DNA of 64,000 nt, taken from the NCBI GenBank assembly GCA_041662125.1, contig JBAZTA010000003.1:71992-135991 (forward strand). Direction: 5' to 3'. This DNA is from Candidatus Omnitrophota bacterium. Its GTDB lineage: Bacteria > Omnitrophota > Gorgyraeia > Gygaellales > Profunditerraquicolaceae. Position numbers and translations under genes: made by a program. Position 1 is the stretch's first letter. Each line of letters begins with the position of its first letter. Under the pieces are notes generated by a model. That model searched no databases. It had not been told where the DNA came from and was given only the letters and a program-made list of their open reading frames with translations. This document shows positions 8,267 through 48,692 of this stretch, piece by piece.

Positions 8267-8304
8267 ATAAAAATATAGAAAGAGTATCCTGTAAAGAGAT
8301 TCCA

Positions 8305-24039: not shown

Positions 24040-24066
24040 ATGTGTCGAATGTTGATTCGATGTGTG

Positions 24067-25187: not shown

Positions 25188-26357
25188 TTAGATTCTTCCT
25201 TCTTGATAAGCTTTTGTAAATGCTGCGACAATGTTCGGATTAAACTGCTGGCAGGCGAGGCTCTTGATCTCCTGAAGAGCTTCTTGTTTATCCTTTGCTT
25301 TACGATAGGGCCTGTCCGTTGTCATGGCATCGAAACTGTCGGCGACCGCGATAATAGCAGCGATTAGGGGGATATTTTCTTCACGTAATCCATCGGGATA
25401 TCCTTTTCCGTCATAGCGTTCATGGTGGTACTTTACCCCTAAAATGGCGTTTCCTAACTCTCCAATTGAATGAAGTATATTGGCGCCGATTACGGGGTGT
25501 GTCTGCATTTTTTTCCACTCTTCAGGCGTTAAAGGCCCTTCTTTGTTCAAGATGTTTTCCGGTATGCCGATCTTCCCGATATCATGGAGGAGTGCTGCTA
25601 TATGTAAATCTTCATAAAATTTATCCGCCAGGTTTATTGATTGTTCCTGGATTACTGTTTTGGCGATCTCGACACTGTAATGCGTTACCCGTTCAGTATG
25701 GCCGTGTGTATAGCGGTCTTTAGCTTCTACTGCCGCAGCAAGCGCGACTGTCGTGTTCATGAAGAGCTTTTGCCTTTTATCCAATTCGTCCTGCAGTTGT
25801 TTGAAAAGGCGCGCGTTGCGCATCGCCATCGCTACGTCTGAAGTCAGCGCGCTGAAAAATGCCAGCTCGTCCTGTTCAAACCGCCTCTTATTTTTCTTTT
25901 TTCCTAAAAATAATATGCCGACCAGGTCCTCCCGGAAAAAACTCGGTATACATACGGCGACATCAAAAATGTCAAGTTGATAGAGTACCTGTTCAAGCAG
26001 AGTCCTTATTTCCGGGCTAATATTCTTATTCTTTTTTAAGGCGTGTTCTGCTTCAGTATAGACGAAGGCCTCGTGATTAAAAAGCAGCCGTTCTTTATGT
26101 TCACGAAAGAACCGGATTAAAGGATTATCTATGTCGAGGCGGGCAAATCCTGCCGGCACCTTTAAGCCGAGCGGGCCCCGTGATACGGTGAGCACGTAGG
26201 TGTTTTGTTCAGGATGGTGCAGTAAAATCCCTGCGTGGCTTACTTGTACTTTTTGTACGACCAGCCTTACGATCATTTTAATGAGCAGGTCAGGCTCATG
26301 TACCAGGATCATGCTTTTAGCTGCCGCTTCAAGTTCTTTTTTGTAATCAATGCCCAT
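25188..26357 (-). CDS. GAF domain + HD-GYP c-di-GMP phosphodiesterase
   Basis: 389 aa: N-terminal GAF, then an HD domain (LLHDIGKIGIP) and the HD-GYP signature HHERYDGKGYPDGL. Confidence 0.85.
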   Translation of the reverse strand: MGIDYKKELEAAAKSMILVHEPDLLIKMIVRLVVQKVQVSHAGILLHHPEQNTYVLTVSRGPLGLKVPAGFARLDIDNPLIRFFREHKERLLFNHEAFVYTEAEHALKKNKNISPEIRTLLEQVLYQLDIFDVAVCIPSFFREDLVGILFLGKKKNKRRFEQDELAFFSALTSDVAMAMRNARLFKQLQDELDKRQKLFMNTTVALAAAVEAKDRYTHGHTERVTHYSVEIAKTVIQEQSINLADKFYEDLHIAALLHDIGKIGIPENILNKEGPLTPEEWKKMQTHPVIGANILHSIGELGNAILGVKYHHERYDGKGYPDGLREENIPLIAAIIAVADSFDAMTTDRPYRKAKDKQEALQEIKSLACQQFNPNIVAAFTKAYQEGRI

Positions 26358-26363
26358 GTGCCC

Positions 26364-26732
26364 TTATTCTTTTTTTAGGAAAGATAATACAATTCTTTCC
26401 AGCTCTTCCATCACGAGAGGTTTATGGATATAGTCAGAAGCCCCTAAGGCGATACATTTTTGGTAAATCTCTTCTTCGTCAGGTTTTTTACCTGTTACCA
26501 TGATGACTTGAATATCTTTGTTTTTCGCTTTAATGCATTGTAACGTCTCAATCCCGTCTTTACCGTCCATTTTTATATCGAGCAGTACTAATTGCGGGTG
26601 TTCTATATCAATTTTGCTTAATGCGTCATCGCCGCCGCAAGCAGTTTGTACGTCAATGTTACGCTTGCGGAAGAAACTAGCCGCAAACTCTCTGACATCC
26701 TGCTCATCATCAACAATCAGTAATTTAGCCAT
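26364..26732 (-). CDS. single-domain response regulator (CheY-like receiver)
   Basis: 122 aa with receiver residues LIVDDE, the phospho-Asp LLDIKMDG, and T/K at conserved positions. Confidence 0.85.
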   Translation of the reverse strand: MAKLLIVDDEQDVREFAASFFRKRNIDVQTACGGDDALSKIDIEHPQLVLLDIKMDGKDGIETLQCIKAKNKDIQVIMVTGKKPDEEEIYQKCIALGASDYIHKPLVMEELERIVLSFLKKE

Positions 26733-26799
26733 TCTACCCCCTTATTAATATAGCGTACTTCAAAAAAAAGAAAAGTTATTTTATTGCCTCACTGTTGCC

Positions 26800-28695
26800 T
26801 TATTCAAATGTCAGGGTCAGTGAAAAATTATCCTCTGAGTTTCCCAGCGTTACAGGAATGGGAGAAAATGGCGATGCCTGTAAGACGCAGAGTTCAGCGA
26901 CAGCATTTAAATTTTGATTAGTAGAAGTTACAATTTTTACCGGGCTTTTAAGGTTGCCGTCTTCATCAAGGGCAAAAGACAATGAAACTTTGCCTTTTTG
27001 AGTGGGATCATGGCGTGTTTGGGTATTCATTAAGGACTTTATCTTATTTATAATAGTTGTTTTGTATTCATCCAAAGTGCCTGGCTCTTTATTGCCAGCT
27101 TCAGCCGTGTTGTCATTACCTTGAGCTTGGGCAAAGGACTGAATATAGCTTATGTCTTTATCACCGGTGAGGCTGGTATATTCAAGAGGTTCGGCGCCGG
27201 TGATTATATGGGGAGTAATAAAAATCACCAGCTCCGTCTTTATGTTTTCAGTCCTGGTATTTTTTGTGAAAATATTGAGAATTGGTATATCACCCAAGAA
27301 TGGTATCTTTTTTTCTTCTTTTTCCCGCTGGTCTTTTTTAAGGCCGGCGATAATTATGGTTGTGCCGTCTTTTACCATGATCGTTGTTTCAGACTCAGAA
27401 GTGGTGACGATGGGGATCTGGGTAATTTTGCCGTCTGCGGTTATGTCGGTGCGTTTCGCGGAGCTAATTTCAGGTTTTATTTTCATGGTGACAAAACCGT
27501 CCCGGTTTATCGTCGGGGTAACATAGAGTTTAATCCCGACATCGACGAAATTCACCGATTGTGAAGTAACCGAAGAATCTCCCGACTGCGTGATGGCGGA
27601 AGTGATATAGGCTTCTTTGGTCCCGACCAGGATCTTTGCTTCCTGGTTATTCAGTGCCATGATCCGGGGGCTGGAAAGGATCTTGGTTTTTCCTATTGCG
27701 CTGAGCAAGTTGATCACTGATTTATATTCGCCTTTTTTGCTTACCGTTTCATTTGCAGCAGCAACTCCGAAAGATAGTTTGTTAGGGATGCTGGTAACAT
27801 CGCTTAAGGAAGGCGCTGGCAGCGAACTGACCAGCCGGACGTGGTCTTTAAGCCAGTAATCCCAGTCAATTCCCATGGTGAACTGGTCTTTTTGAGGGGT
27901 AATTTCGATGATTTGAGCGTCAATTAAGACCTGTTGTGTTTTTTCATCAAAAGCAGTGATAATTTTGGCTATGTCGTTGAGTTTTTCCGGGTAATCGGTT
28001 ACCGCGATCTTATTGGTCCGTTCATCGATTTTCATGGAGCCGATCGATTTTGTGATTGTTTCTGCGAGTTTTGCGCTTAATTTTTCTGCCGTCGCGTATT
28101 TAAGCTCAAAGATCATGGTTTCCAGAGGCAAGTCGGTTTTCAGGATAAAACTTTCTATTTCAGCTACTTTTTCCGGCGTATCGACTATGGTAAGGGTGTT
28201 TGAGCCTTCATCAACCACAACTTTGCCGATATTTGATTTTAGCTGCATAATGGCTTTCGATAAGTCTGCGGCTTTGGCATTCTTTATATGGAATACCTGC
28301 ACCTCTTTTTTATCCTGGAAACGTTCACCGTAAATAAGCTCATAATCACGTTGCGTCATGACGTTGATAATATCGTTTTTCTTGTCATAGGCGAGGTCAT
28401 TGGCAGATAACAGGATTTGAAAGGCTTCCCAGAGATCAACATCTTTTAGAAAGAGCGTTACTTTTCCGGTGACATTTTTTCCGACAATAATATTTAACCC
28501 GGAGCGAGTCGCAAGCATTTTCAGGACATCAGTAATGTCCATGCCCTTTATATCAAGTGAAACCCTGTTTTGTTCAGACGGCTTGGATATTTCCATTTGC
28601 GCAAGTTTTGCGTTTTGAGATATTTCCTGCGCAAAGGCTCTTGGGATAAACACGAACAATAGGAAACATAGGTATATGGTAATTCCCTTTTTCAT
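26800..28695 (-). CDS. type II secretion / type IV pilus secretin (GspD/PilQ family) with C-terminal TonB_C-like domain
   Basis: Start reassigned to MKKGITIYLCFLLFVFIPRAFA (signal peptide; RBS GGAGGA sits 6 nt upstream). It has N0/N domains and a secretin core (ILSSPRIMALNNQEAKILVG...IPFLGDIPILNIFTKN...ELVIFITPHII). The final ~95 aa (GKVSLSFALDEDGNLKSPVKIV...AVAELCVLQASPFSPIP) align with the C-terminus of the local TonB at 10827-11549. Confidence 0.85.
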   Translation of the reverse strand: MKKGITIYLCFLLFVFIPRAFAQEISQNAKLAQMEISKPSEQNRVSLDIKGMDITDVLKMLATRSGLNIIVGKNVTGKVTLFLKDVDLWEAFQILLSANDLAYDKKNDIINVMTQRDYELIYGERFQDKKEVQVFHIKNAKAADLSKAIMQLKSNIGKVVVDEGSNTLTIVDTPEKVAEIESFILKTDLPLETMIFELKYATAEKLSAKLAETITKSIGSMKIDERTNKIAVTDYPEKLNDIAKIITAFDEKTQQVLIDAQIIEITPQKDQFTMGIDWDYWLKDHVRLVSSLPAPSLSDVTSIPNKLSFGVAAANETVSKKGEYKSVINLLSAIGKTKILSSPRIMALNNQEAKILVGTKEAYITSAITQSGDSSVTSQSVNFVDVGIKLYVTPTINRDGFVTMKIKPEISSAKRTDITADGKITQIPIVTTSESETTIMVKDGTTIIIAGLKKDQREKEEKKIPFLGDIPILNIFTKNTRTENIKTELVIFITPHIITGAEPLEYTSLTGDKDISYIQSFAQAQGNDNTAEAGNKEPGTLDEYKTTIINKIKSLMNTQTRHDPTQKGKVSLSFALDEDGNLKSPVKIVTSTNQNLNAVAELCVLQASPFSPIPVTLGNSEDNFSLTLTFE

Positions 28696-28706
28696 ATTAG
28701 TCCTCC

Positions 28707-28800
28707 TGCCACAGAAAGTGGCATACCGGCCTATCCGATAAGGCCGGGTGTAAACAGCACCCCAGCTAATAGGTATGCTGGGTGCGCCCTTTCTGGGCAG
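28707..28800 (-). repeat. structured intergenic element, copy C (inverted relative to A and B), directly upstream of the secretin RBS
   Basis: Minus-strand RNA: a closing stem CUGCCCAGAAAG/CUUUCUGUGGCAG encloses hairpins CACCCAGC-AUACCUAUUA-GCUGGGGUG and CCGGCCU-UAUCGGAU-AGGCCGG. Hairpin 1 is near-identical to the second hairpin of copy A. Confidence 0.5.
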
Positions 28801-28816
28801 TAAGCGAAACATGCCG

Positions 28817-29458
28817 CTATAAGTATAGTTCAAATTTTTGCCCCTTATGATTGAGGATTATTTTGCCGTCAAGTATTTCTTCGACCATGAGTTCTCCGAT
28901 ACATTGGCCTTTGGAGACGTAATAGGTCTTTTCTGTTTTTTTATCTTCAATGATCGCCTGAGGATTATCACCGGCAATAACACCGACAAGATTTATGTCT
29001 TTCAGGAGATCGTGATTGACCGAAGCCATGCTTGTGCTTGTTTCCAAAGCAGCCTGGCTGTGAAACATTTGCTCGTTATTGATGCCTGTTTGATAATACT
29101 CAAGCGGTTTTATAGGGCTTGAACTTATTACTGGTTTCTGCACAATGCCTGGTTTCTCTTTTATGTCAGAGATGTTGATCGAAGGCGAGTTTATGAGAGG
29201 ATAGATCAGAGATCCTGTCAAGTATGCGAGTGAAGCGAAAAAACAGATCAAAACTATTTTTCCCGGGTTTAATCTTAAAGATATTATGTGTTGTGGCTTG
29301 ATTTTTGCATGGCCTGTTTTTGTTTGAACACTCGGCTCTGGAAGAGGGGGAACCCGTCCGGTTTGCAGCATTGATTGTTTTTCTGCCGGAAGGCGCTGTT
29401 TTTGCTCGTTTCGTATAAGCCGTAAAAGTTTTTCTTCAGGTGAAATATTGTCAGCCAT
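28817..29458 (-). CDS. GspC/GspB/PilP-like secretin-interacting inner-membrane protein
   Basis: 213 aa with one TM (IVLICFFASLAYLTGSLIY) and a C-terminal beta-domain (LVGVIAGDNPQAIIEDKKTEKTYYVSKGQCIG...ILDGKIILNHKGQKFEL) resembling the GspC HR / PilP fold. It lies between gspA and the secretin. Confidence 0.5.
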   Translation of the reverse strand: MADNISPEEKLLRLIRNEQKQRLPAEKQSMLQTGRVPPLPEPSVQTKTGHAKIKPQHIISLRLNPGKIVLICFFASLAYLTGSLIYPLINSPSINISDIKEKPGIVQKPVISSSPIKPLEYYQTGINNEQMFHSQAALETSTSMASVNHDLLKDINLVGVIAGDNPQAIIEDKKTEKTYYVSKGQCIGELMVEEILDGKIILNHKGQKFELYL

Positions 29459-29460
29459 AG

Positions 29461-30273
29461 TTATGCGCGTGCTGTTATTAAATGCTGGATAATCTCTTCA
29501 TCTACAGAGCTTTTCCCTTTCATGACGACAGTTTCCAGGGCATCATGGCATAAAAGCGCAATTTTGCGGGGATGCCCTTGAGTTTGTTCATAGATCAAAC
29601 GTATCGCTCCCAATGAAAATAACTCATCAGGGGCACTATGCCCGGCTTGCATAAGACGAAAAGCGATCATTTCTTTAACTTCCGTTTCGTCGAACGGATT
29701 AATGGTATATTTGAGGGCGATACGGTCGATAAAATTATTGATCCTCTTGATGCGCGGCAAGAGTTCCAGTTGCGCCATAATTACCAGTTGTAATAGTTTA
29801 AATTCATTGGTCTCGTAGTTGAGCAGCATGCGTAAGACTTCGAGGTTTTCGGTCGAGATAGTTTGTCCTTCATCAATAAGCAGGATTATCGTTTTATTCT
29901 CATTGATGCCGGCATGAAACAAATATTTTTCCAGGTCTTCTTTGAAAGTCAGGGTTGATTTAAAAGTTGATTTGATCCCGAAGATTTTTGTTAAGCTTAA
30001 CAGGAATTGAAATTCCGATTTATAACTGGGATCGAGGATCATATGGAAGACAAAATCGTCTTCGTTCTTGAAGGTTTGCAGGAGCGTGCGCGAGAGTGTT
30101 GTTTTGCCCATGCCGACATCCCCTAAAATTAAGCTTAAGCCTCTGCGCAGCCTTATGGCGATTTCCAGGCGTTTAAGTGTGGTGTCATGGCTGACGGAAC
30201 GGTAAAGGAACGCGGGGTCGGGGCTGGTAGAAAACGGTTCTTTTTCAAGTCCTAATACTTTAAAGTAACTCAT
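29461..30273 (-). CDS. gspA: T2SS protein A (ExeA/GspA-like AAA+ ATPase)
   Basis: 270 aa with Walker A LILGDVGMGKTTL, Walker B ILLIDEGQ and an ExeA-type N-terminus (PF13401-like). Confidence 0.8.
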   Translation of the reverse strand: MSYFKVLGLEKEPFSTSPDPAFLYRSVSHDTTLKRLEIAIRLRRGLSLILGDVGMGKTTLSRTLLQTFKNEDDFVFHMILDPSYKSEFQFLLSLTKIFGIKSTFKSTLTFKEDLEKYLFHAGINENKTIILLIDEGQTISTENLEVLRMLLNYETNEFKLLQLVIMAQLELLPRIKRINNFIDRIALKYTINPFDETEVKEMIAFRLMQAGHSAPDELFSLGAIRLIYEQTQGHPRKIALLCHDALETVVMKGKSSVDEEIIQHLITARA

Positions 30274-30481
30274 TCTTTATCTCATGAAGTGACTTATCTT
30301 GTTTTCTTAAGCTGCGAATTACCTTTAATGTTTCAACGTTTGAATCATTGAAATAACGATAATGGGTTTCAGGGCTACGGCTGATTTCTTTGAGAAGGCC
30401 AATTTTGAGGTAAAATTTTATGGTATGAATTGAATATCCGGTAATACGCGCTAAATCTTTTATTAAGTAAATGTTAGAAAT
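30260..30481 (-). CDS. small MerR-family HTH protein (non-ATG start; overlaps the gspA start codon)
   Basis: Reverse-strand frame reads ISNIYLIKDLARITGYSIHTIKFYLKIGLLKEISRSPETHYRYFNDSNVETLKVIRSLRKQDKSLHEIKNELL*, a canonical MerR HTH and wing. An RBS GGGAGG lies 5 nt before an AUU/AUC codon. It is absent from the ATG-only ORF track. Confidence 0.5.
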   Translation of the reverse strand: MSNIYLIKDLARITGYSIHTIKFYLKIGLLKEISRSPETHYRYFNDSNVETLKVIRSLRKQDKSLHEIKNELL

Positions 30482-30582
30482 GATTACCTCCCTTTACTCT
30501 CTAACTAGAGAGTATATCAGTTCCTGTATATTAGTCAAGGATAATTAGAGGAGCGATTTGGGATTGAGCTAAAGGGCGTGAT

Positions 30583-33423: not shown

Positions 33424-33438
33424 TCCGGTTGAGATGAT

Positions 33439-34026
33439 CTATCCTCCCTGCGGTATATATATAGTCCGAACAAGCGTGATCGTTGATTTCTTTTTTATCG
33501 ACACAAGCACTTTTACTGCTGCCGGCAGCTTTTCTTGAGCGATCCAGGAAGACTGCCACTGCAGGGGCTCTTTGGGATCAGGAGCCTGTCCGTAACTAAA
33601 TGAGATCTTTTCAATATCGCCTGTCATCTCATCAGGTTGGATGTTTGATTTTTCGTTAAGGCTTTCTTTGTTTTTCCGGCAGAGCCGTAAAAGTTTATTA
33701 TTGACGAGTGTATAGGAAATAAATGCCACGTCTTTCTGGCGGTTGTTTCCCTCGTAGGTGTCAAGTATCGTCAGAAAGTTGATCTCGCTGCCGGTCCCCG
33801 AGAAAAGAGGTTTACCTTTTGAGAACAAAAACGAGTTCCTTAAGTCGCTGTTAATACGTTCTATTATCTGCCCTCCCGCTAAAAAACCGTTGAGTGCTTC
33901 ATCAATATTGCCGTACCCGAAAATTCCTATTTGGAGAGCAGAGAAAATACTCAGGGCTACCACAAGCAATAGTGTTGAGGCAATAAGTAATTCTATAAGG
34001 GTGAATCCCCGGGTTTTACTGGTCAT
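33439..34026 (-). CDS. minor pseudopilin, GspJ-like (prepilin-type N-terminal cleavage/methylation domain)
   Basis: 195 aa with the prepilin motif RGFTLIELLIASTLLLVV. Confidence 0.65.
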   Translation of the reverse strand: MTSKTRGFTLIELLIASTLLLVVALSIFSALQIGIFGYGNIDEALNGFLAGGQIIERINSDLRNSFLFSKGKPLFSGTGSEINFLTILDTYEGNNRQKDVAFISYTLVNNKLLRLCRKNKESLNEKSNIQPDEMTGDIEKISFSYGQAPDPKEPLQWQSSWIAQEKLPAAVKVLVSIKKKSTITLVRTIYIPQGG

Positions 34027-34397
34027 CGTAAATATGTTTGAAAGGTTATCGTCTCTTGCCTTTTTGACCTCATCCAGCGTATATCAACGCTGGAGGTGTA
34101 CAGGTTTAATTCTGTGTTTAATTCTTTCTGAAAGCGCAATTGGAATTTGCCGGCCGTAGTGCGGCTGTCAGGATTTTCTTGAGCGATAAGAGAATTATTC
34201 TCTTTGAATTCCAGTTCCTGCAGCTTATCTTTTGCCAGTAAAACTGCCTGGAGCACCTCGCAGGATAACGCCGCCGAACGGGTAGAAAAAGAGAATCCTT
34301 GTAATATAATGACGATACCCGATGAAAGTATCGCTATAGAGATCAGCAGCTCTAATAATGAAAAAGCGCCTTTACTGCTCCTTAGTTTTAATCCCAC
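34023..34397 (-). CDS. minor pseudopilin, GspI-like
   Basis: 124 aa with KGAFSLLELLISIAIL. Size and gene order fit GspI. Confidence 0.65.
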   Translation of the reverse strand: MGLKLRSSKGAFSLLELLISIAILSSGIVIILQGFSFSTRSAALSCEVLQAVLLAKDKLQELEFKENNSLIAQENPDSRTTAGKFQLRFQKELNTELNLYTSSVDIRWMRSKRQETITFQTYLR

Positions 34398-34812
34398 CGA
34401 ATACTCCTTGTGTTGTCAGGGTGATGTTTTGTTTTTGCCTGTTGATAAGTGTGATGGTGACTTTGTCGATTGTTCCGTCAGGATAAACGAATATCTCCGG
34501 TTGGTCGGATTCTATGTGTATGCCGTCGGGCAGGCGGTAATTCCGAAAATGGCTGGCATCGGCCTCAAATTTTACCCGGTAACTATTTTCTTGAGTGTCC
34601 AGGATTAAACGTATGGGTTTTGTTTCGACGATCGCCCGCTGGCTCAGGAAGTTGATATATGCTTGTAACTGCCGTGAAGCGTTGGCCAGTTGTATGTTCT
34701 CGGCGGAACGCTTGAATTGGGGTAATGACAGGGCGGTCAAGATCCCCAGCAGGGTTATGACGATAAGCAGTTCGATAAATGTAAAACCAACATGTCCCGG
34801 CGTCTTGGTCAT
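34372..34812 (-). CDS. minor pseudopilin, GspH-like
   Basis: 146 aa with GFTFIELLIVITLLGILTAL. Confidence 0.65.
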   Translation of the reverse strand: MTKTPGHVGFTFIELLIVITLLGILTALSLPQFKRSAENIQLANASRQLQAYINFLSQRAIVETKPIRLILDTQENSYRVKFEADASHFRNYRLPDGIHIESDQPEIFVYPDGTIDKVTITLINRQKQNITLTTQGVFGGIKTKEQ

Positions 34813-34818
34813 AGCCTT

Positions 34819-35238
34819 TTACCAGTTACTTATATCATCATGATCCCCTTCTATCATATTGGCACCCGCAGAAGAAAGATCATAATTTTCATTATGCGCG
34901 CCGGGAGATGTATAGGAATAGGCATTGCCCCAGGGGTCTTTGGGAACTTTTTTAAGGTACGGCCCTTTCCAGCCCTTCAGCGATCCCGGGTTAGTGATAA
35001 GTGCTTGGAGCCCTTCTGTAGTCGCAGGATAACGGTCGTTATCGGTTTCGAAGATGTCTAATGCCAGTGCGATAGATGCGTTTATTTCCGACTGGGCAGC
35101 GGCGATCTTTGCAGTTTCAGAACGCCCCACGAGCCGGGGAGCGACCATCGCAGCTAATATGCCGATAATGACCACGACAAGCATTAATTCTATTAACGTA
35201 AAGGCTTTAAGAGGTTGTTGCTTGAGCTTTTCTATCAT
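34819..35238 (-). CDS. gspG: T2SS major pseudopilin G
   Basis: 139 aa. KAFTLIELMLVVVIIGILAAMVAP...DPWGNAYSY...YDLSSAGANMIEGDHDDISNW has the GspG-specific DPWG and C-terminal calcium-site motifs. Confidence 0.9.
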   Translation of the reverse strand: MIEKLKQQPLKAFTLIELMLVVVIIGILAAMVAPRLVGRSETAKIAAAQSEINASIALALDIFETDNDRYPATTEGLQALITNPGSLKGWKGPYLKKVPKDPWGNAYSYTSPGAHNENYDLSSAGANMIEGDHDDISNW

Positions 35239-35241
35239 GAG

Positions 35242-36450
35242 CTATCTCACAATTAAATTGATCTGGAATATTGGCAAAAGCATTGCAATGACGATGAAAC
35301 CAACCACTAACCCCATGATCAAGATTATCACCGGCTCTAAAAGACGGGTTAAAGTTTTAATAATCCGGTCGACTTCTTTTTCATAATCAACGGCGATCCT
35401 TAAAAGTGCTTTCTCGAGATTTCCGGTTTCTTCTCCGGTATTGACGATGTTCGTCACCAAGGACGGGAATAAGGCAGAGCCTTTGAGGCATTGGGAAAGG
35501 CTTCCCCCCTGTGATAACGTATGTTTAAACGTTAAAACCTCTTGTTTGAGGACTTCGTTTTGAATGGATGATGCGGTGACATCCAGCGCGTATACAATCG
35601 GGATCCCTCCAGAGATTAACAAAGATAAGGTGCGGACAAAACGGCTGATCTCAGTCTTTAAGATAATGATCCCTAATCCCGGTATTTTGATCTTGAAACG
35701 GTCAAAGATCATTCTGCCTTCAGGTTTCATAGAGAGTTGACGGATGATGAAAACAATGACTATGATAATTAACCCGAGTATGAGCCAGTACGTGCGTAAG
35801 AATATTGAAACAGTAACTAAAATCTGTGTCGGCAAGGGCAAAACCTGCCCCATATCAGTAAACATGGTGACCAGGCGGGGAATAACAAACCCTAAAAGGA
35901 TAAAGACCGTGATGATACTGACTGCTAAAAGGAAAAACGGGTAGGTTAATGCTGCTAAGAGAGAACTTTTAAATTCTTCTTCTTTTTCCATGAATTCTGC
36001 CAGCCGTTTGAGCGCGGGCTCAACTGACCCGCCTACTTCGCCGGAATGGACCATGGAAATGTATAATGGCGAGAATATCCCGGGATATTCAGAGAAACTT
36101 TCTGACAGGGATCGACCGTCTCTAATTTTATGAGCGATATCCTGTAATACTGCTTTGAAATATGTGTCGGCAGTCTGGTTGGATAATATGGTAAGGCCAT
36201 TTAAGATAGTGACGCCTGATTCTATCAGGCTTGCGAGTTGTCCGGTAAAAAGGGAGACGTTTTTATCGGATACCTTCCAGAGCCGCCGTAAACCTGTTTT
36301 CTGAAGGTTGGGGGCCGCGCTTTGAATAGAAACCGGAAAATACCCCTTTTGGGTGATTTTATTTACAGCGTCTTGTTCGCTCTCCGCTTCAATACTGCCC
36401 TCTATGATCTCTTGTGGTTTTGATTTTGCGGTATAAATATATTTTTGCAT
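35242..36450 (-). CDS. gspF: T2SS/T4P inner-membrane platform protein F
   Basis: 402 aa with duplicated GspF domains and 3 TM segments. YIYTAKSKPQEIIEGSIEAESEQDA is the typical N-terminus. Confidence 0.9.
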   Translation of the reverse strand: MQKYIYTAKSKPQEIIEGSIEAESEQDAVNKITQKGYFPVSIQSAAPNLQKTGLRRLWKVSDKNVSLFTGQLASLIESGVTILNGLTILSNQTADTYFKAVLQDIAHKIRDGRSLSESFSEYPGIFSPLYISMVHSGEVGGSVEPALKRLAEFMEKEEEFKSSLLAALTYPFFLLAVSIITVFILLGFVIPRLVTMFTDMGQVLPLPTQILVTVSIFLRTYWLILGLIIIVIVFIIRQLSMKPEGRMIFDRFKIKIPGLGIIILKTEISRFVRTLSLLISGGIPIVYALDVTASSIQNEVLKQEVLTFKHTLSQGGSLSQCLKGSALFPSLVTNIVNTGEETGNLEKALLRIAVDYEKEVDRIIKTLTRLLEPVIILIMGLVVGFIVIAMLLPIFQINLIVR

Positions 36451-36459
36451 GAGTACTCT

Positions 36460-38169
36460 TTAGGTGAGTTCTTCCTGCTGGGTGACGCGTATAACTTCGG
36501 TTAACGTCGTAATGCCAAGTTCAACTTTTTGCATTCCGTTTTGACGCATCGTGCGCATCCCTTGCGCAATGGCCTTTTGCATAATGTGCTGGCTGGAGGC
36601 GTGATTTATGATGAGATCCCGTATAGCGTCAGTGACCGTGAGGATTTCATAGATCGCAGTCCTCCCCTGGTATCCGGTAAAACGGCATTCTTCGCAGCCC
36701 GTGCCTTCATAAAACACGGCATTTCCAGATTTGGAATTCATATCTTTTATCTGTCCCAGTATTTCTTTTTTCGACGGTGAGACAATCTTGCATTTTGGGC
36801 AGATCACCCTTACTAAACGCTGAGCAATAAGGCATTCAAGCGAGGATGATACTAAAAATGGCTCCACTCCCATATCGACAAGACGAGTTACTGCGCCGGA
36901 TGCGTCGTTGGTATGCAGGGTTGAGAAAACCAGATGCCCCGTTAATGCGGCGCGTATCGCGATCTCTGCGGTCTCATAATCCCGGACTTCTCCGATCATC
37001 ATGATATCAGGGTCATGGCGCAGCATGTGCCGCAATCCCATGGCAAAATCAAGGCCGATCTTAGGTGAGACCTGCATTTGGTTGACGCCTTTGAGCTGGT
37101 ATTCTATGGGGTCTTCTATCGTGATGATCTTGACTGAGTCTGAGTTAATACGCGCAAGGCTGGCATAAAGTGTCGTCGATTTTCCTGAACCGGTCGGGCC
37201 GGTAACGAAAATGATCCCGTGAGGTTTTTTGATCACCTGCTCGATGATCGCTAAATCCTGCGGCAGAAGCCCTAATTTCTCAAGTTCGAGGAAAAAACGC
37301 TGGCTTAAGATCCTGATGTGTACAGCTTCCCCAAAGGCCGTCGGCAGGGTCGAAATACGCAGGTCAAGTTCGGTATCATTAATGCCTATTTTTATCCTTC
37401 CATCTTGCGGCAGCCTGTGTTCTGCGATATTAAGGTGCGCCATGATCTTAATGCGTGAGACGATCGCTTGATGGAATACACTAATGGTTTTGGGAATGTT
37501 GATATTGTAGAGGATGCCATCAATACGAAACCGAGTACGCAATTCACCTTCAAATGGTTCCAGATGAATATCGGTTGCCCGGTCTTTAATGGCTTCGGTC
37601 AGTATTTGATTGACAAATTTAATGATTGAGGCGCCTTCGGCCAAGGATTCAAGGTCTTCGGTTTTTTGTATATCGAGTTTTGCTTCTTCAGCAGGAAGTT
37701 TTAGCGATATCATCTTCTCGAGCGTTTCAGCTCCTACCCCGTAATATTTCCGGATAGCTTCCTGAATTTGGAATTCGCTGGTTAAGACACCTTTTATTTC
37801 AAAGCCCAAAAGCAGCCGTAAGTCGTCAAGGGTGCGGGTATCCAGCGGGTCTGCCATGGCGATGGTCAGCGTATTTTCGTTTAAGTCAATAGGGATGATC
37901 TTATAATGGCTTGAGAATTTCGGAGTGACCTTTTGAATTACTGCCGTTGGAATCTCCAAATCATTTAACTTGATGTACGGGACATTGAGCTGGTGGGAAA
38001 GCACGGTGAATATCCTCTCCTCGATCGCGAATCCCATTCGAGAGAGGGTAGTGCAGAGATGTTCATGAGTTTTCTTCTGTTCTTTTAATCCGGCTTCTAA
38101 CTGTTCTTTGGTGATGATGCCTTGATCCAGCAGCATCTTGCCGATCATTTTCGTAGATTTTGTGGACAT
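36460..38169 (-). CDS. gspE: T2SS/T4P assembly ATPase (GspE/PilB) with N-terminal MshEN-type domain
   Basis: 569 aa with Walker A GPTGSGKST, Asp/His boxes and a C-terminal CPKC...CEEC zinc site. The N-terminus MIGKMLLDQGIITKEQLEAGLKEQ ... LCTTLSRMGFAIEERIFTVLSHQLNV matches the tandem MshEN c-di-GMP-binding motif. Confidence 0.9.
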   Translation of the reverse strand: MSTKSTKMIGKMLLDQGIITKEQLEAGLKEQKKTHEHLCTTLSRMGFAIEERIFTVLSHQLNVPYIKLNDLEIPTAVIQKVTPKFSSHYKIIPIDLNENTLTIAMADPLDTRTLDDLRLLLGFEIKGVLTSEFQIQEAIRKYYGVGAETLEKMISLKLPAEEAKLDIQKTEDLESLAEGASIIKFVNQILTEAIKDRATDIHLEPFEGELRTRFRIDGILYNINIPKTISVFHQAIVSRIKIMAHLNIAEHRLPQDGRIKIGINDTELDLRISTLPTAFGEAVHIRILSQRFFLELEKLGLLPQDLAIIEQVIKKPHGIIFVTGPTGSGKSTTLYASLARINSDSVKIITIEDPIEYQLKGVNQMQVSPKIGLDFAMGLRHMLRHDPDIMMIGEVRDYETAEIAIRAALTGHLVFSTLHTNDASGAVTRLVDMGVEPFLVSSSLECLIAQRLVRVICPKCKIVSPSKKEILGQIKDMNSKSGNAVFYEGTGCEECRFTGYQGRTAIYEILTVTDAIRDLIINHASSQHIMQKAIAQGMRTMRQNGMQKVELGITTLTEVIRVTQQEELT

Positions 38170-38230
38170 ACCTCCCCCTTATCTATAAAAAATTATACGG
38201 TATATGATTTAGAATGTAAAGATGAATAAT

Positions 38231-39304
38231 TTAATACAGGATAAGCGGATTAAATTTAAGCCTATTGAAAATGAGCCAGCAGGTAGGTGCAATTGCTTTC
38301 CAGGGCTGGAGTGTCCAGAAATCAGAGGCATCGCCGGTGTTTGTAGCCAAGAGGACCGAACCGTCTTTTTGTTGGGCTTTGGTAGCTTCGTTCAGATAAA
38401 AACTATATTTTGAACTTACGTGAGCACGCAAGAACGCCAGTGACATTTGTAATGTGCCTTCCAGCCAAACTGTATCGAGATGGCTGTTATAGTCAAATCC
38501 TTTGATGAGCGCTGATGAGTTATTCAGGGGTTTAATTAAACCCAGGTTATTTTCTGCCCACGATAAGGCGGCAGAGTATTTTACCCCTAAAAGTAAAACT
38601 CCAAGCGATTGCACGTCAGTAACCGCTGTTGAATCAAAGGGGCCGCGGTTGAATCGCGTCCCATCCCATACCGCGGGGCTGGTAATGAATTTTTTGATTT
38701 TTTGCGCCTTGCTATAATATGAAAAAAGATTGTTTAAACGCCCGTAATTAGAAAGTGCAGCGCAGGCGATAATATTATGCTCGGTGCTTTTCCAAGAGTC
38801 ATAGGTGCTGCCTCGCAGTCCTGCGTCATTGCTATCCTGGAGTTTCAGCAGAAAGTCAGCGAGCAGTCTTTGCGTGGCGAGAAACTCTTTGGAGTTCGTA
38901 TGTTTTTGATAAATAGTATATGCTTGTAATAACCATGCGGTATTCCCGCAGTAAGAAACCCCATTGCCTCTTCCTGATGCGTCGGAAAACGTATAACTTT
39001 CGTAAGGCACGTTATCCAGGCTTAATTTTACTTCAGTACTTAACGTAGCCAGGATCTCTTGAGCTAATCCGTAATTGCCCGTGATTGTAAATGCGATCGC
39101 AGCAAGGGCATTGTCATAAACGTAGCTGATATCACTTGCGTCTTCCTGATATGAATCCACAAGCCCTATTCCTTTAATTTGATTGGCGAGAAATATCTGC
39201 GCTTTCCAAGCGGAATTGTTTTTAACTTGCACGGGAGCGCTATATGCGCAGGTAGACATTGCAGTGAAAACAAGTAAGAATAAAATTTTTGCGAATTTCA
39301 TCAT
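38231..39304 (-). CDS. secreted hypothetical protein (signal peptide; possible alpha/alpha-toroid glycosidase-like fold), candidate T2SS cargo
   Basis: 357 aa with signal peptide MMKFAKILFLLVFTAMSTCAYSA. Repeated aromatic/Ala-rich helical segments (YDNALAAIAF, NTAWLLQAY, IIACAALSNYG) suggest a six-hairpin fold. Confidence 0.4.
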   Translation of the reverse strand: MMKFAKILFLLVFTAMSTCAYSAPVQVKNNSAWKAQIFLANQIKGIGLVDSYQEDASDISYVYDNALAAIAFTITGNYGLAQEILATLSTEVKLSLDNVPYESYTFSDASGRGNGVSYCGNTAWLLQAYTIYQKHTNSKEFLATQRLLADFLLKLQDSNDAGLRGSTYDSWKSTEHNIIACAALSNYGRLNNLFSYYSKAQKIKKFITSPAVWDGTRFNRGPFDSTAVTDVQSLGVLLLGVKYSAALSWAENNLGLIKPLNNSSALIKGFDYNSHLDTVWLEGTLQMSLAFLRAHVSSKYSFYLNEATKAQQKDGSVLLATNTGDASDFWTLQPWKAIAPTCWLIFNRLKFNPLILY

Positions 39305-48661: not shown

Positions 48662-48692
48662 AGCGCTCCTTACTTTTTTAAAAAAATTAAAC

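What the first reader, a model, noticed from the sequence alone, without database searches (positions are those of the whole stretch)
25188..39304. Complete T2SS-like machine wired to c-di-GMP signalling
The gene order on the minus strand is gspE-F-G-H-I-J-K-L(fusion)-M-[MerR]-A-C/B-D, all with tight or overlapping junctions. GspE carries a tandem MshEN motif at its N-terminus (MIGKMLLDQGIITKEQLEAGLKEQ / LCTTLSRMGFAIEERIFTVLSHQLNV). MshEN is a known c-di-GMP-binding module of MshE/PilB-type ATPases. Immediately downstream of the secretin sit a GAF/HD-GYP c-di-GMP phosphodiesterase and a CheY-like receiver. Together these suggest that second-messenger levels gate pilus or secretion assembly. 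The GspL equivalent is a single PilM/PilN-type fusion, and GspC is replaced by a small PilP-like protein, making this a T2SS/T4aP hybrid typical of poorly studied lineages.
Basis: partly seen in the sequence, partly recalled or inferred. Interest (0 to 1): 0.7.

Follow-up and report, generated by a model that had tools for sequence, protein, structure and literature searches.

The report
Omnitrophota secretion machine beside c-di-GMP genes
This is a type II secretion-like machine found throughout the uncultured phylum Omnitrophota; here it lies between a sensor kinase and its receiver/c-di-GMP-degrading enzyme, and its motor ATPase carries a modified c-di-GMP-binding motif, so second-messenger control is plausible but unproven and the principle is already known from other bacteria.

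Summary
On the minus strand lie gspE-F-G-H-I-J-K, a PilM-PilN fusion, a GspM/PilO-like gene, a small merR-like gene with an ATT start, a short GspA/MshM-like ATPase, a GspC-type TM+HR protein and a secretin with a TonB_C-like tail. A receiver and a GAF-HD-GYP phosphodiesterase follow. The organism is a Candidatus Omnitrophota bacterium, and related clusters occur in at least 80 of its GTDB species.

GspE aligns without gaps to V. cholerae MshE, with two 24-residue motifs and a 5-residue spacer. Both motif-initial Arg are replaced (Met/His here, Leu/Phe in orthologues). Gly40 is an invariant Cys in 120/120 orthologues. Published work shows Arg is dispensable, whereas Gly-to-Ala at that position costs about 10-fold in affinity. 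Binding is therefore possible but untested.

Receiver plus HD-GYP follow the secretin in only 14 of 62 informative species. Elsewhere the orthologue of the window's upstream 7TM-GAF kinase sits next to them, so kinase, receiver and HD-GYP form the cohesive unit. Even so, GGDEF or HD-GYP genes border this cluster in at least four different arrangements.

Verdict: a real machine. The c-di-GMP link is plausible and partly supported, and it is a new variant of a known kind.

The parts
43032..45233 (-). 7TM-GAF histidine kinase (HK1), the probable partner of the receiver at 26364-26732
   Evidence: HisKA_7TM, GAF and HATPase_c matches. Orthologues at 46-60% identity lie 0-1 kb upstream of the receiver/HD-GYP pair in L088, L089, L090, L091 and L096.
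39358..42970 (-). DUF2079 membrane protein (41060-42970) and a methyltransferase-GT2 fusion (39358-41067), lying between HK1 and the secretion genes
   Evidence: Pfam matches and NCBIfam matches. No hit to the window's DUF2079 or 38231-39304 protein beside the cluster in more distant loci; only weak GT2-domain hits to the MT-GT2.
38231..39304 (-). Secreted (alpha/alpha)6-barrel protein resembling glycoside hydrolases; candidate cargo of the machine
   Evidence: N-terminal signal-peptide-like sequence. No Pfam or NCBIfam match. AF2 model with pLDDT 94.7. Foldseek matches to glycosidases 5z3a and 7c25, MmpH 7qsj (TM 0.71-0.73), GH116 and GH76. Homologous domains occur in large proteins that also carry CBM56, CBM30 or PKD domains.
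38192..38220 (-). Promoter-like site in the 61-nt gap upstream of gspE
   Evidence: TTTACA-17-TATAAT, 11 of 12 matches. Consensus match only; the total number of such sites in the region is at chance level.
36460..38169 (-). GspE/PilB-type assembly ATPase with an N-terminal MshEN domain
   Evidence: T2SSE 2e-136; TIGR02533 605 bits (cut-off 630); TIGR02538 591 bits (cut-off 676). Walker A GPTGSGKST and the CPKC...CEEC motif are visible in the translation. More than 120 Omnitrophota orthologues at 69-92% identity.
37990..38148 (-). Tandem MshEN_N motif, residues 8-60: MIGxxLLxxGIIxxxxLxxxLxxQ, 5-residue spacer, HLCxxLxxxGFxxxxxIxxxLxxQ
   Evidence: NF053729 at 48.2 bits against a cut-off of 38. 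Gapless alignment to VcMshE 5HTL. Column counts in 120 orthologues.
35242..36450 (-). GspF/PilC-type platform protein
   Evidence: T2SSF 2.5e-59; TIGR02120 364 bits (cut-off 424).
34819..35238 (-). GspG major pseudopilin
   Evidence: TIGR01710 at 135 bits against a cut-off of 88.85; T2SSG 4e-30. The C-terminus ends ...DDISNW, as is typical of GspG (read from the sequence).
32539..34812 (-). Minor pseudopilins GspH (34372-34812), GspI (34023-34397), GspJ (33439-34026) and GspK (32539-33423)
   Evidence: N_methyl matches. Best NCBIfam matches are ComGD (1.5e-14) then GspH (8.7e-12) for the first gene, and GspI, GspJ and GspK for the others. T2SSJ 31.4 bits exceeds its cut-off of 28; GspK 82 bits is below its cut-off of 130.
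31110..32549 (-). PilM-PilN fusion protein, with the architecture of GspL
   Evidence: PilM_2 7.8e-9 on residues 45-209 and PilN 2e-8 on residues 395-472. Amuc_1101-family PilM-like match 1.4e-15.
30583..31110 (-). GspM/PilO-like protein
   Evidence: Weak matches to PilO, T2SSM and NF040576 GspM (36.5 bits against a cut-off of 60).
30495..38220 (-). Proposed first transcription unit: gspE through the GspM-like gene. The span runs from the promoter-like site upstream of gspE to the merR promoter region.
   Evidence: Inference from the 9 to -26 nt junctions between these genes and the promoter-like sites.
30495..30538 (-). Conserved promoter-like site (TTGACT, 16 nt, TATACT) overlapping a perfect palindrome TACTCTCTA-GT-TAGAGAGTA; probable operator of the MerR-like protein
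   Evidence: The pattern CTCT-N2-10-AGAG is found at the same place in 43 of 58 loci, and the -35 element CTTGACAAA is also conserved.
30260..30481 (-). Small MerR-family helix-turn-helix protein (73 aa) with an ATT start; it overlaps the next gene by 14 nt
   Evidence: MerR_1 2.9e-16. Start codon context. Twelve of 57 orthologous loci have no canonical in-frame start codon.
29461..30273 (-). Short GspA/ExeA/MshM-like AAA+ ATPase with no transmembrane or peptidoglycan-binding domain
   Evidence: AAA_22 3.3e-16; TIGR03015 163 bits (cut-off 324.5). Orthologues at 44-92% identity in nearly all loci.
28817..29458 (-). Minimal GspC-type protein: cytoplasmic helix, transmembrane helix and a C-terminal HR-domain beta-sandwich, with no PDZ domain
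   Evidence: T2SSC 1e-3. Orthologues carry PF11356 and some carry PF16537 T2SSB. AF2 pLDDT about 95 for residues 149-213. Best PDB match is the GspC HR domain 3oss_C (TMt 0.84, rmsd 0.9 A), followed by PilP, LspC and PulC.
26800..28695 (-). Secretin (N0, two Secretin_N domains and a Secretin domain) with a C-terminal TonB_C-like domain at about 26848-27000
   Evidence: Secretin 1.1e-45, Secretin_N 7.7e-23, TonB_C 2.2e-5. PilQ 256 bits and GspD 243 bits, both below cut-off. Many orthologues share the TonB_C or TonB_2 match.
26364..26732 (-). Stand-alone receiver (CheY-like) protein
   Evidence: Response_reg 2.5e-26. The acidic pocket DD, the phospho-acceptor D in LLDIKM, and the T and K residues are visible in the sequence.
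25188..26357 (-). GAF-like + HD-GYP protein, a predicted c-di-GMP phosphodiesterase
   Evidence: HD_5 1.8e-36, HD 4.5e-20, weak GAF. HD, HHE..DG.GYP and all the metal-ligand columns are invariant in 12 orthologues.
21829..25185 (-). Genes that always follow the HD-GYP gene: an MGDG/diglucosyl-DAG synthase-like GT28, a lipid A-type acyltransferase, a GT2 and PCMT
   Evidence: Pfam and NCBIfam matches. Where the locus extends far enough, MGDG and further genes of this block follow HD-GYP in the HD-GYP-positive loci.

Best explanation
The locus encodes a type II secretion-type machine of the type IV filament superfamily. This machine is a conserved lineage trait of Candidatus Omnitrophota.

What is shown:
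- The motor ATPase GspE and platform GspF are predicted to assemble a short pseudopilus of GspG, tipped by GspH, I, J and K.
- A PilM-PilN fusion and a PilO/GspM-like protein form the inner-membrane alignment complex.
- A minimal GspC (transmembrane helix plus HR domain) is predicted to connect that complex to the secretin's N0 domain.

What is inferred:
- The genes form three transcription units: (i) gspE to gspM; (ii) merR-gspA-gspC-gspD, driven by a conserved promoter with a palindromic operator; (iii) receiver, HD-GYP and the glycolipid genes.
- The signal-peptide-bearing (alpha/alpha)6 glycosidase-like protein just upstream of gspE is a candidate cargo.
- The regulatory model: the 7TM-GAF kinase at 43032-45233 phosphorylates the stand-alone receiver, and the receiver modulates the GAF-HD-GYP phosphodiesterase. 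This would be a split version of the RpfC/RpfG logic. The resulting local c-di-GMP level would be read by the N-terminal MshEN_N four-helix bundle of GspE, gating assembly of the machine.
- The receptor motif is a derived form, (L/M)IG...Q / (F/H)(I/L)C...Q. In this form large hydrophobic residues would stack on the guanines in place of Arg.
For: The machine:
- Family matches above or near curated cut-offs for E, F, G, J and the secretin.
- The GspC HR-domain fold.
- The gene set and order are conserved in 80 species-level loci.

The receptor:
- NF053729 scores above its cut-off.
- The alignment to MshE 5HTL is gapless, with 11 of 14 key positions identical or conservative.
- Ligand-contacting Gln and Leu positions are conserved in orthologues: Q32 in 111/120, L25 in 120/120, L58 in 120/120, Q61 in 89/120.
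- Arg-free high-affinity binding is documented for PilF GSPII-B, and a hydrophobic first residue increases affinity (PMC11731258).

The signalling link:
- Receiver plus HD-GYP lie 15-236 nt after the secretin in 14 of 62 informative species. These loci are scattered through a large clade of the secretin tree.
- HK1 orthologues are contiguous with the receiver/HD-GYP pair in L088-L091 and L096.
- A GAF-GGDEF gene lies divergently next to gspE in L168.
- A gene encoding a protein with a GGDEF-type domain starts 63-70 nt after the secretin in L063 and L066.
- A PAS-GGDEF gene lies upstream of pilMN in L056.
- In L091 the order is HK, REC, RECx3-GAF-GGDEF, HD-GYP, glycolipid genes, gspE, gspF.
Against: - Gly40 of the MshEN motif, whose backbone NH binds the guanine, is Cys in 120/120 orthologues. 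Gly-to-Ala at this position lowered affinity about 10-fold in PilF, and near-consensus GSPII domains such as PilF GSPII-A and XpsE do not bind (PMC12002112, PMC5013675).
- Q61 is His, Lys or another residue in about a quarter of orthologues.
- 48 of 62 informative loci lack receiver/HD-GYP after the secretin.
- The HD-GYP gene is always followed by glycolipid genes. In the metagenome sample it more often follows HK1 (5 loci) than the secretin (1 locus). It may therefore serve the glycolipid genes instead.
- The window contains no GGDEF gene.
- The whole 64 kb is transcribed in one direction, so co-orientation carries no information.
- Promoter and terminator scans are at chance level overall.
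- No prepilin peptidase was found in the window.
- Nothing here is experimental.
Confidence: 0.5

Rival explanations
1. The adjacency is inherited gene order without functional coupling. HK1, the receiver and HD-GYP form a signalling unit that controls the downstream envelope glycolipid/glycosyl genes (GT28 MGDG-synthase-like, lipid A-type acyltransferase, GT2). The secretion cluster merely lies between the kinase and the receiver in this lineage. Under this reading the MshEN-like N-terminus of GspE is a structural or protein-interaction domain that no longer binds c-di-GMP, as in XpsE and PilF GSPII-A.
For: - Wherever the contig extends far enough, the GT28 gene, and further downstream the acyltransferase and GT2, follow HD-GYP in the HD-GYP-positive loci.
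- In the HD-GYP-centred sample, HK1 is the upstream neighbour in 5 loci and the secretin in 1.
- 48 of 62 loci lack the linkage.
- HD-GYP and the GT28 gene are 2 nt apart, whereas the secretin and the receiver are 67 nt apart with a promoter-like site between them.
- Cys replaces Gly40 in every orthologue, and non-binding near-consensus domains are documented (PMC12002112, PMC5013675).
Against: - Unrelated c-di-GMP enzymes (GGDEF proteins of three different architectures) also border the cluster in other lineages: L168, L056, L063/L066 and L091.
- The block also sits directly upstream of gspE in L091 and L038. Repeated adjacency after rearrangement is hard to explain by inheritance alone.
- The residues that contact only the ligand (Q32, Q61) remain largely conserved.
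Confidence: 0.3
2. The machine is a pilus system of the MSH or type IVa kind rather than a secretion system. It would build surface filaments for attachment to prey or host cells, in line with the proposed epibiotic or predatory lifestyle of Omnitrophota. c-di-GMP would control piliation, as it does for MshE and PilB.
For: - The alignment module has pilus-type composition: a PilM-PilN fusion (as in MshI), a PilO-like protein, a short MshM-like ATPase and a PilP/HR-fold protein.
- The secretin scores slightly higher on PilQ than on GspD, and source annotations often call it MshL.
- The full-length ATPase aligns to PilB from residue 9.
- Adhesin-like giant proteins lie next to the secretin module in L004 and L007.
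Against: - The major subunit passes the GspG equivalog cut-off and has the GspG C-terminal signature.
- A full H-I-J-K set is present, including a GspK-like protein that lacks Glu5.
- There is no PilT in the window.
- The MshL equivalog scores 185 bits, below its cut-off of 250.
Confidence: 0.15
3. The derived MshEN_N domain, with its LIG/FIC starts and invariant Cys, binds a ligand other than c-di-GMP, such as another cyclic dinucleotide. Alternatively, its binding is switched by the redox state of the Cys.
For: - Cys is invariant (120/120) at a position that faces the ligand pocket in the homologous domains (PMC12002112).
- MshEN binds cGAMP weakly (PMC5013675, legend to figure 1).
Against: - There is no direct evidence.
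- The neighbouring enzymes are of c-di-GMP types (HD-GYP, GGDEF).
- The rest of the motif follows the c-di-GMP consensus.
Confidence: 0.05

Closest known systems
Classical type II secretion system (Gsp/Pul/Eps of Escherichia, Klebsiella and Vibrio)
   Same: It has GspE, F, G, H, I, J and K in the canonical order, a GspM-like protein, a GspC HR domain that structurally matches the domain seen bound to GspD N0 in 3OSS, and a secretin with an N0 domain and Secretin_N domains.
   Different: - GspL is replaced by a PilM-PilN-type fusion.
- GspC has no PDZ or coiled-coil domain.
- The secretin module lies at the end of the cluster behind its own merR-type regulator and promoter.
- The secretin carries a C-terminal TonB_C-like domain.
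- No GspN or GspO was found in the 64 kb.
- The GspE N-terminus is MshE/PilB-like rather than the GspL-binding N1E type.
V. cholerae MSHA pilus system and the MshEN domain of MshE (PDB 5HTL)
   Same: The ATPase N-terminus aligns without gaps, with two 24-residue motifs and a 5-residue spacer. The accessory set resembles MshI (PilM/N), MshJ, MshK, MshL and MshM (a short ExeA-like ATPase).
   Different: R9, R38 and G40 of MshE correspond to M, H and C here (L, F and C in the family). The filament subunits are Gsp-type pseudopilins and the gene order differs. The MshL equivalog score is below its cut-off.
T. thermophilus PilF GSPII-B domain (PDB 8PDK and related entries)
   Same: It is an arginine-free MshEN-type site in which hydrophobic or aliphatic residues at the first position of each motif stack on the guanines. 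The published extended consensus is (R/K/L)LG.
   Different: PilF keeps Gly at the third position of both motifs, whereas this family has Cys in motif II. PilF drives a true type IV pilus and carries three tandem domains.
RpfC/RpfG-type two-component control of an HD-GYP phosphodiesterase (from general knowledge of Xanthomonas)
   Same: A sensor kinase, a receiver and an HD-GYP enzyme act as one signalling unit. All HD-GYP catalytic motifs are intact.
   Different: The receiver is a separate protein, the HD-GYP protein carries a GAF-like domain instead, and the kinase has a 7TM-GAF sensor. In this lineage the kinase gene is separated from the other two by about 16 kb of secretion and glycosylation genes.
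Aeromonas ExeA-ExeB (GspA-GspB) secretin assembly factors
   Same: An ExeA-like AAA+ ATPase is encoded next to the secretin, and a TonB-like element is associated with the secretin. ExeB is described as 39% similar to TonB and binds ExeD (PMC4098917).
   Different: The ATPase is short (270 aa) with no transmembrane or peptidoglycan-binding domain. The TonB_C-like domain is fused to the C-terminus of the secretin rather than being a separate GspB.
Type II secretion-like loci reported near giant genes in Omnitrophota (bioRxiv 10.1101/2023.11.21.568195 and 10.64898/2026.06.07.730766)
   Same: Same phylum. Both describe a conserved multi-subunit gspD/E/F-containing system associated with glycoside hydrolases and adhesin-like proteins.
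   Different: Those reports mention rcpC/Tad-like components and a rotamase. They do not describe the MshEN variant, the merR-gspA-gspC-gspD module or the HD-GYP linkage. Whether they describe the same locus family was not determined here.

Membership tests
Type II secretion system | GspE-type assembly ATPase and GspF platform protein | tested here: met
   T2SSE 2e-136 and T2SSF 2.5e-59. The GspE and GspF equivalogs are the best NCBIfam matches, though slightly below cut-off (605 vs 630; 364 vs 424).
Type II secretion system | GspG major pseudopilin | tested here: met
   TIGR01710 at 135 bits against a cut-off of 88.85.
Type II secretion system | Minor pseudopilins GspH, I, J and K | tested here: inconclusive
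   Four prepilin-type genes lie in the right order. T2SSJ is above its Pfam cut-off. The H, I and K matches are below cut-off; GspI and GspK are the best matches for their genes, while the first gene scores ComGD ahead of GspH. The K-like protein lacks Glu5.
Type II secretion system | GspL and GspM inner-membrane components | tested here: inconclusive
   There is no T2SSL match. Instead there is a PilM_2+PilN fusion with a GspL-like architecture. The GspM and PilO matches are below cut-off.
Type II secretion system | GspC with an HR domain that contacts the secretin | tested here: met
   The AF2 model matches the GspC HR domain 3oss_C (TMt 0.84, rmsd 0.9 A). No PDZ domain is present.
Type II secretion system | GspD secretin | tested here: met
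   Secretin, Secretin_N and GspD N0 matches. The protein is not distinguished from PilQ (256 vs 243 bits, both below cut-off).
Type II secretion system | Prepilin peptidase GspO | tested here: not met
   No Peptidase_A24 match among the ORFs of at least 150 aa scanned across the 64-kb window. The gene may lie elsewhere in the genome.
Type II secretion system | Secretion of folded periplasmic proteins | not testable with these tools
   There is only a candidate cargo: the signal-peptide glycosidase-like protein at 38231-39304.
MshEN c-di-GMP receptor domain | Two 24-residue motifs separated by a 5-residue spacer at the N-terminus | tested here: met
   Residues 8-31 and 37-60 with spacer 32-36. 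The alignment to 5HTL is gapless. NF053729 scores above its cut-off.
MshEN c-di-GMP receptor domain | Gly at positions 11, 18, 40 and 47 (VcMshE numbering; the criterion used for the published logo, PMC5013675) | tested here: not met
   G10, G17 and G46 are present, but position 40 is Cys39, and it is Cys in 120/120 orthologues.
MshEN c-di-GMP receptor domain | R, K or L at the first position of each motif (extended consensus, PMC11731258) | tested here: inconclusive
   The window has Met and His. The family has Leu (107/120) and Phe (103/120). These are large hydrophobic or aromatic residues, but Met, His and Phe are untested.
MshEN c-di-GMP receptor domain | Leucine clusters (L10, L54, L58 and L39, L25, L29) and terminal Gln32 and Gln61 | tested here: met
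   The window has I9, I53, L57, L38, L24, L28, Q31 and Q60. These are conserved in orthologues, except that Q61 is Q in only 89/120.
MshEN c-di-GMP receptor domain | Measured c-di-GMP binding | not testable with these tools
   Requires ITC, DRaCALA or NMR.
HD-GYP c-di-GMP phosphodiesterase | HD and HHExxDGxGYP motifs with a full set of metal ligands | tested here: met
   HDIGK and HHERYDGKGYP are present. H220, H258, D259, H287, H311, H312, E313, D340 and D343 are invariant in 12 orthologues.
HD-GYP c-di-GMP phosphodiesterase | Hydrolysis of c-di-GMP | not testable with these tools
   Requires an enzyme assay.
Type IVa pilus / MSH pilus | Pilin-type major subunit, PilT retraction ATPase, and PilQ or MshL secretin equivalog | tested here: not met
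   The major subunit is a GspG equivalog. There is no PilT in the window. PilQ and MshL scores are below cut-off.

The most novel reading that the evidence does not exclude
Omnitrophota have turned the MshEN module of their secretion ATPase into a distinct receptor subtype: arginine-free, with LIG/FIC motif starts and an invariant pocket-facing Cys. This receptor would be served by a dedicated local circuit of a 7TM-GAF kinase, a receiver, an HD-GYP enzyme and, in some lineages, adjacent GGDEF enzymes. In these ultra-small, possibly predatory bacteria, secretion or attachment would then be switched by a private c-di-GMP pool, or by a redox-gated or alternative-dinucleotide signal. The secretin module would be a separately regulated unit with a built-in TonB-like assembly domain and an autoregulated merR-type switch translated from an AUU/AUC start codon.
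Probability: 0.15. Interest if true: 0.65.

Novelty: new variant of a known kind. Interest (0 to 1): 0.45.

Why it matters
Omnitrophota are abundant, uncultured, very small bacteria. Their proposed predatory or epibiotic lifestyle is thought to depend on secretion or pilus machines and extracellular glycosidases.

A phylum-wide, well-defined T2SS-type locus with identifiable control points gives concrete targets for biochemistry and for reading metatranscriptomes. Those control points are a derived MshEN site, a kinase/receiver/HD-GYP unit, and a merR-type operator in front of the secretin module.

The invariant Gly-to-Cys change also gives a natural test of how far the MshEN consensus can drift while still binding c-di-GMP.

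The general principle, c-di-GMP binding to T2SS and T4P ATPases, is already established. The gain is therefore incremental unless the variant proves to behave differently.

Tried and rejected
- The mechanical ORF list showed no ORF over 30 aa in the 309-nt gap, which at first suggested there was no MerR gene. Three-frame translation and orthologues showed the gene is real but starts at ATT.
- I first judged the missing Arg residues to be disqualifying for c-di-GMP binding. The literature on PilF GSPII-B reversed that judgement.
- I compared the window's HK1 and receiver with the kinase/receiver pair next to the secretin in L003. At 31% and 35% identity they are paralogues, not orthologues. The true HK1 orthologues (46-60%) were found only in the HD-GYP-centred scan.
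- Promoter and terminator scans were at chance level overall; only individual intergenic sites are mentioned.
- A regex and tblastn search found no GGDEF, EAL or PilZ motif in the window. EAL and PilZ were not searched for in the related loci.
- The neighbour-joining secretin tree is star-like and poorly resolved. It cannot separate one ancestral arrangement with many losses from several gains.
- A sequence search of the PDB with the 357-aa protein found nothing. Only the structure prediction was informative.
- No structure was predicted for the GspE N-domain, because a ligand-free model would not decide whether it binds.

Full report
**Origin and setting.** The window belongs to a Candidatus Omnitrophota bacterium. 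The secretin and the GspC-like protein have 100%-identical entries from a 395-kb JGI/NCBI MAG contig. The 120 best homologues of the secretin and of GspE that carry a name are all labelled Omnitrophota or Omnitrophica. Every credible gene in the 64 kb lies on the minus strand. Shared orientation is therefore no evidence of linkage.

**Check of the observation.**
- The order is GspE (36460-38169), GspF, GspG, GspH, GspI, GspJ and GspK, then a PilM_2+PilN fusion (31110-32549) and a PilO/GspM-like protein.
- Next come a 309-nt gap, an AAA_22 ATPase (29461-30273), a 213-aa protein with a weak T2SSC match, and a secretin (26800-28695, counted from the likely Met47 start).
- A receiver (26364-26732) and a GAF-like HD-GYP protein (25188-26357) follow.
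- Junctions within gspE to gspM range from +15 to -26 nt.
- GspG passes its NCBIfam equivalog cut-off. GspE and GspF score just under theirs, with the Gsp models ranked first.

The 'MerR' gene looked absent from the ORF list. Translation of the gap shows a 73-codon frame that begins at ATT, 5 nt after GGAGG, and overlaps the ATPase gene by 14 nt. It matches Pfam MerR_1 at 2.9e-16, and orthologues are present in most related loci.

The word 'complete' is not justified. No prepilin peptidase, GspN or PilT is encoded in the window. The stated range also includes an undescribed gene, 38231-39304.

**Individual components.** The 213-aa protein was modelled from 42 orthologues.
- It has a conserved cytoplasmic helix, a transmembrane helix and a C-terminal beta-domain with pLDDT about 95.
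- Its best PDB match is the GspC HR domain from the ETEC GspC-GspD complex (3oss_C; TMt 0.84, rmsd 0.9 A). PilP, LspC and PulC HR follow.
- It is therefore a minimal GspC without a PDZ domain. However, it is membrane-anchored by a helix, as GspC is.
- Some orthologues also carry the Pfam T2SSB match.

The secretin ends in a TonB_C-like domain, and many orthologues share this feature. ExeB/GspB is described as TonB-like and binds the secretin (PMC4098917). A built-in GspB-type function is therefore a reasonable but untested idea.

The ATPase upstream is a short ExeA/MshM-like AAA+ module.

The 357-aa protein upstream of gspE has a signal-peptide-like N-terminus and no Pfam match.
- Its AF2 model has pLDDT 94.7 and folds as an (alpha/alpha)6 barrel.
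- The model resembles glycoside hydrolases: 5z3a, MmpH 7qsj, GH116 and GH76.
- Homologous domains occur in proteins of up to 7491 aa that also carry CBM56, CBM30 or PKD domains.
- It is a candidate cargo. This fits published ideas about Omnitrophota secretion systems and extracellular glycosidases (bioRxiv 10.1101/2023.11.21.568195; 10.64898/2026.06.07.730766).

**The MshEN motif.** GspE residues 4-68 align without gaps to V. cholerae MshE 5HTL. The correspondences between window residues and MshE residues are:

| Window | MshE |
|---|---|
| M8 | R9 |
| I9 | L10 |
| G10 | G11 |
| G17 | G18 |
| L24 | L25 |
| L28 | L29 |
| Q31 | Q32 |
| H37 | R38 |
| L38 | L39 |
| C39 | G40 |
| G46 | G47 |
| I53 | L54 |
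| L57 | L58 |
| Q60 | Q61 |

The NCBIfam model for the MshE-related c-di-GMP motif scores 48.2 bits against a cut-off of 38.

In 120 orthologues the deviations are a family trait:

| MshE position | Residue counts in 120 orthologues |
|---|---|
| R9 | Leu 107 |
| R38 | Phe 103 |
| G40 | Cys 120 |
| G11 | Gly 119 |
| L25 | Leu 120 |
| L58 | Leu 120 |
| Q32 | Gln 111 |
| Q61 | Gln 89, His 20 |

What the literature says about these positions:
- Wang et al. (PMC5013675) show that the Arg residues stack on the guanines, the Gly backbone NH groups bind O6 and N7, and the Gln residues bind the ribose and phosphate. Arg9 changes altered affinity less than five-fold. XpsE, with many substitutions, does not bind.
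- Neissner et al. (PMC11731258) show that PilF GSPII-B binds at 6 nM with Lys and Leu in place of both Arg. They extend the consensus to (R/K/L)LG and conclude that a large hydrophobic first residue favours high affinity.
- In the resurrected PilF GSPII-A (PMC12002112), Gly-to-Ala at the G40-equivalent position cost about 10-fold, and Arg-to-Ser at the R38-equivalent position abolished binding.

The real uncertainty is the invariant Cys. I put the chance of physiologically relevant c-di-GMP binding at roughly one half.

**Conservation of the linkage, centred on the secretin.** A scan of one genome per GTDB species returned 304 confirmed matches, of which 80 loci were kept. Nearly all are labelled Omnitrophota. 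A tblastn survey with all window genes gave the following:
- The merR-gspA-gspC-gspD module is almost universal, and gspE to gspM is usually directly upstream.
- Of 62 loci with at least 1.6 kb after the secretin, 14 have receiver plus HD-GYP 15-236 nt downstream.
- Where the contig extends far enough, these are followed by the GT28 gene and then by the acyltransferase, GT2 and PCMT genes.
- On a rough neighbour-joining tree these 14 loci are scattered through one large clade. They are absent from the deep clades.

**Conservation of the linkage, centred on the HD-GYP gene.** A metagenome scan found few full-length orthologues, but they were informative.
- In L088, L089, L090, L091 and L096 the gene 0-1 kb upstream of the receiver/HD-GYP pair is the orthologue of the window's 7TM-GAF kinase at 43032-45233, at 46-60% identity. 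Paralogues score about 30%.
- Only L093 has the secretin in that position.
- Kinase, receiver and HD-GYP are therefore the cohesive signalling unit.
- In the window's lineage, DUF2079, a methyltransferase-GT2 fusion, the glycosidase-like gene and the whole secretion cluster lie between the kinase and the receiver.

**Other c-di-GMP genes next to the cluster.**
- In L168 (the same genome as L042) a GAF-GGDEF gene lies divergently right upstream of gspE, while receiver and HD-GYP follow the secretin.
- In L063 and L066 a 1350-aa protein starts 63-70 nt after the secretin. Its N-terminal GGDEF-type domain has the variant motif RYAGDEF.
- In L056 a kinase, a receiver, a radical-SAM protein and a PAS-GGDEF protein precede pilMN.
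- In L091 a RECx3-GAF-GGDEF protein sits between the receiver and HD-GYP, and gspE-gspF follow the glycolipid genes.
- L038 also has the acyltransferase and GT2 genes directly before gspE.

Different enzymes in different positions argue for a functional association. The events are few, they are not phylogenetically independent, and no formal null model was computed.

**Mechanism and rivals.** The most likely reading (confidence about 0.5 for the whole chain) has two parts. First, this is a T2SS-type machine; that part alone I hold at about 0.85. Second, its assembly ATPase reads c-di-GMP through a derived MshEN site, and the c-di-GMP level is set locally by HK1, the receiver and the GAF-HD-GYP enzyme.

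The main rival (0.3) holds that the signalling unit serves the glycolipid genes that invariably follow it, and that the GspE N-domain no longer binds nucleotide. A pilus rather than secretion function (0.15) is not excluded by the pilus-like alignment module, but the GspG equivalog and the H-I-J-K set argue against it.

**Transcription units.** A conserved promoter-like element (TTGACT, 16 nt, TATACT) overlaps a perfect palindrome, TACTCTCTA-GT-TAGAGAGTA (30514-30495), just before the merR-like gene.
- The pattern CTCT-N2-10-AGAG is found at the same place in 43 of 58 loci. Deep-branching clades have two tandem copies.
- Twelve of 57 loci have no canonical start codon for this gene and use ATT or ATC after a strong Shine-Dalgarno sequence.
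- The secretin module therefore probably has its own autoregulated promoter, separate from gspE to gspM.

**Novelty and score.** c-di-GMP binding by T2SS and T4P ATPases through MshEN is established (PMC5013675), as is its occurrence in gsp operons and next to HD-GYP domains. T2SS-like loci in Omnitrophota have also been noted in preprints.

What appears new here:
- the arginine-free, Cys-containing motif variant fixed across a phylum;
- the secretion cluster lying between the kinase and the receiver/HD-GYP genes of one signalling unit;
- the merR-gspA-gspC-gspD module with its conserved operator;
- the fusion of a TonB_C-like domain to the secretin.

This is a new variant of a known kind, of moderate interest (0.45). 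Nothing was tested experimentally.

Noticed in passing
window 30479-30481 (start of the merR-like gene, 30260-30481, minus strand): The regulator gene starts at ATT, 5 nt after GGAGG. In 12 of 57 orthologous loci there is no in-frame ATG, GTG or TTG at all, and an ATT or ATC follows a strong Shine-Dalgarno sequence. A non-canonical start codon therefore seems to be a conserved feature of this gene. One possibility is low or IF3-sensitive translation.
   Followed up: partly
window 30495-30538, minus strand: A promoter-like site (TTGACT, 16 nt, TATACT) overlaps a perfect palindrome, TACTCTCTA-GT-TAGAGAGTA. The pattern CTCT-N2-10-AGAG and the -35 element CTTGACAAA recur at the same place in 43 of 58 related loci. 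Deep-branching loci (L069, L074, L079, L084, L087) have two tandem palindromes. This is probably the operator of the MerR-like protein.
   Followed up: partly
window about 26848-27000 (C-terminus of the secretin, 26800-28695): The secretin carries a C-terminal TonB_C/TonB_2-like domain, shared by many Omnitrophota orthologues. It may be a built-in equivalent of the TonB-like assembly factor GspB/ExeB.
   Followed up: partly
window 38053-38055 (Cys39 of GspE): Cys occupies the position of Gly40 of the MshEN motif in 120 of 120 orthologues, and Phe or His occupies the Arg38 position. [quoted passage not shown]
   Followed up: partly
window 38231-39304, minus strand: This protein has a signal-peptide-like N-terminus and no Pfam or NCBIfam match. 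It is predicted with high confidence to fold as an (alpha/alpha)6 barrel similar to glycoside hydrolases. It belongs to an unnamed family of about 680 representative clusters, which also occurs as a domain in giant proteins carrying CBM56, CBM30 or PKD domains.
   Followed up: yes
window 48287-52314, minus strand: There is a second 7TM histidine kinase (48693-50852) with its own receiver (48287-48766), preceded by a B12-binding radical-SAM gene (50845-52314). A similar kinase, receiver and radical-SAM trio sits upstream of pilMN in L056.
   Followed up: no
L063 11927-15985 and L066 3368-7411: A 1350-aa protein with an N-terminal GGDEF-type domain (motif RYAGDEF), followed by a large region containing a P-loop-like motif (not domain-scanned), is encoded directly after the secretin in two distant Omnitrophota lineages.
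   Followed up: partly
L091 3635-5941: A protein with three receiver domains followed by GAF and GGDEF domains lies between the receiver and the HD-GYP gene. This makes that operon a complete unit of kinase, diguanylate cyclase and phosphodiesterase. The glycolipid genes follow, and then gspE and gspF.
   Followed up: partly
L004 601-8262 and L007 83-2248: Large adhesin-like proteins lie just upstream of the merR-gspA-gspC-gspD module. One is 2553 aa with fn3, He_PIG and Big_9 domains; the other is 721 aa with cadherin-like and dockerin domains.
   Followed up: no
window 20309-20497, 6453-6954 and 8192-8376: A cobalamin riboswitch lies upstream of a corrinoid uptake and salvage gene set (BtuF-like, FecCD, ABC transporter, CobU, CobT, CobS and a TonB-dependent receptor at about 11.7-20.1 kb). 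There is also an RNase P RNA whose match spans 502 nt against a 367-position model, and tRNA-Val and tRNA-Met genes.
   Followed up: no
window 1-64000: All credible protein-coding and RNA genes in the 64 kb are on the minus strand.
   Followed up: no
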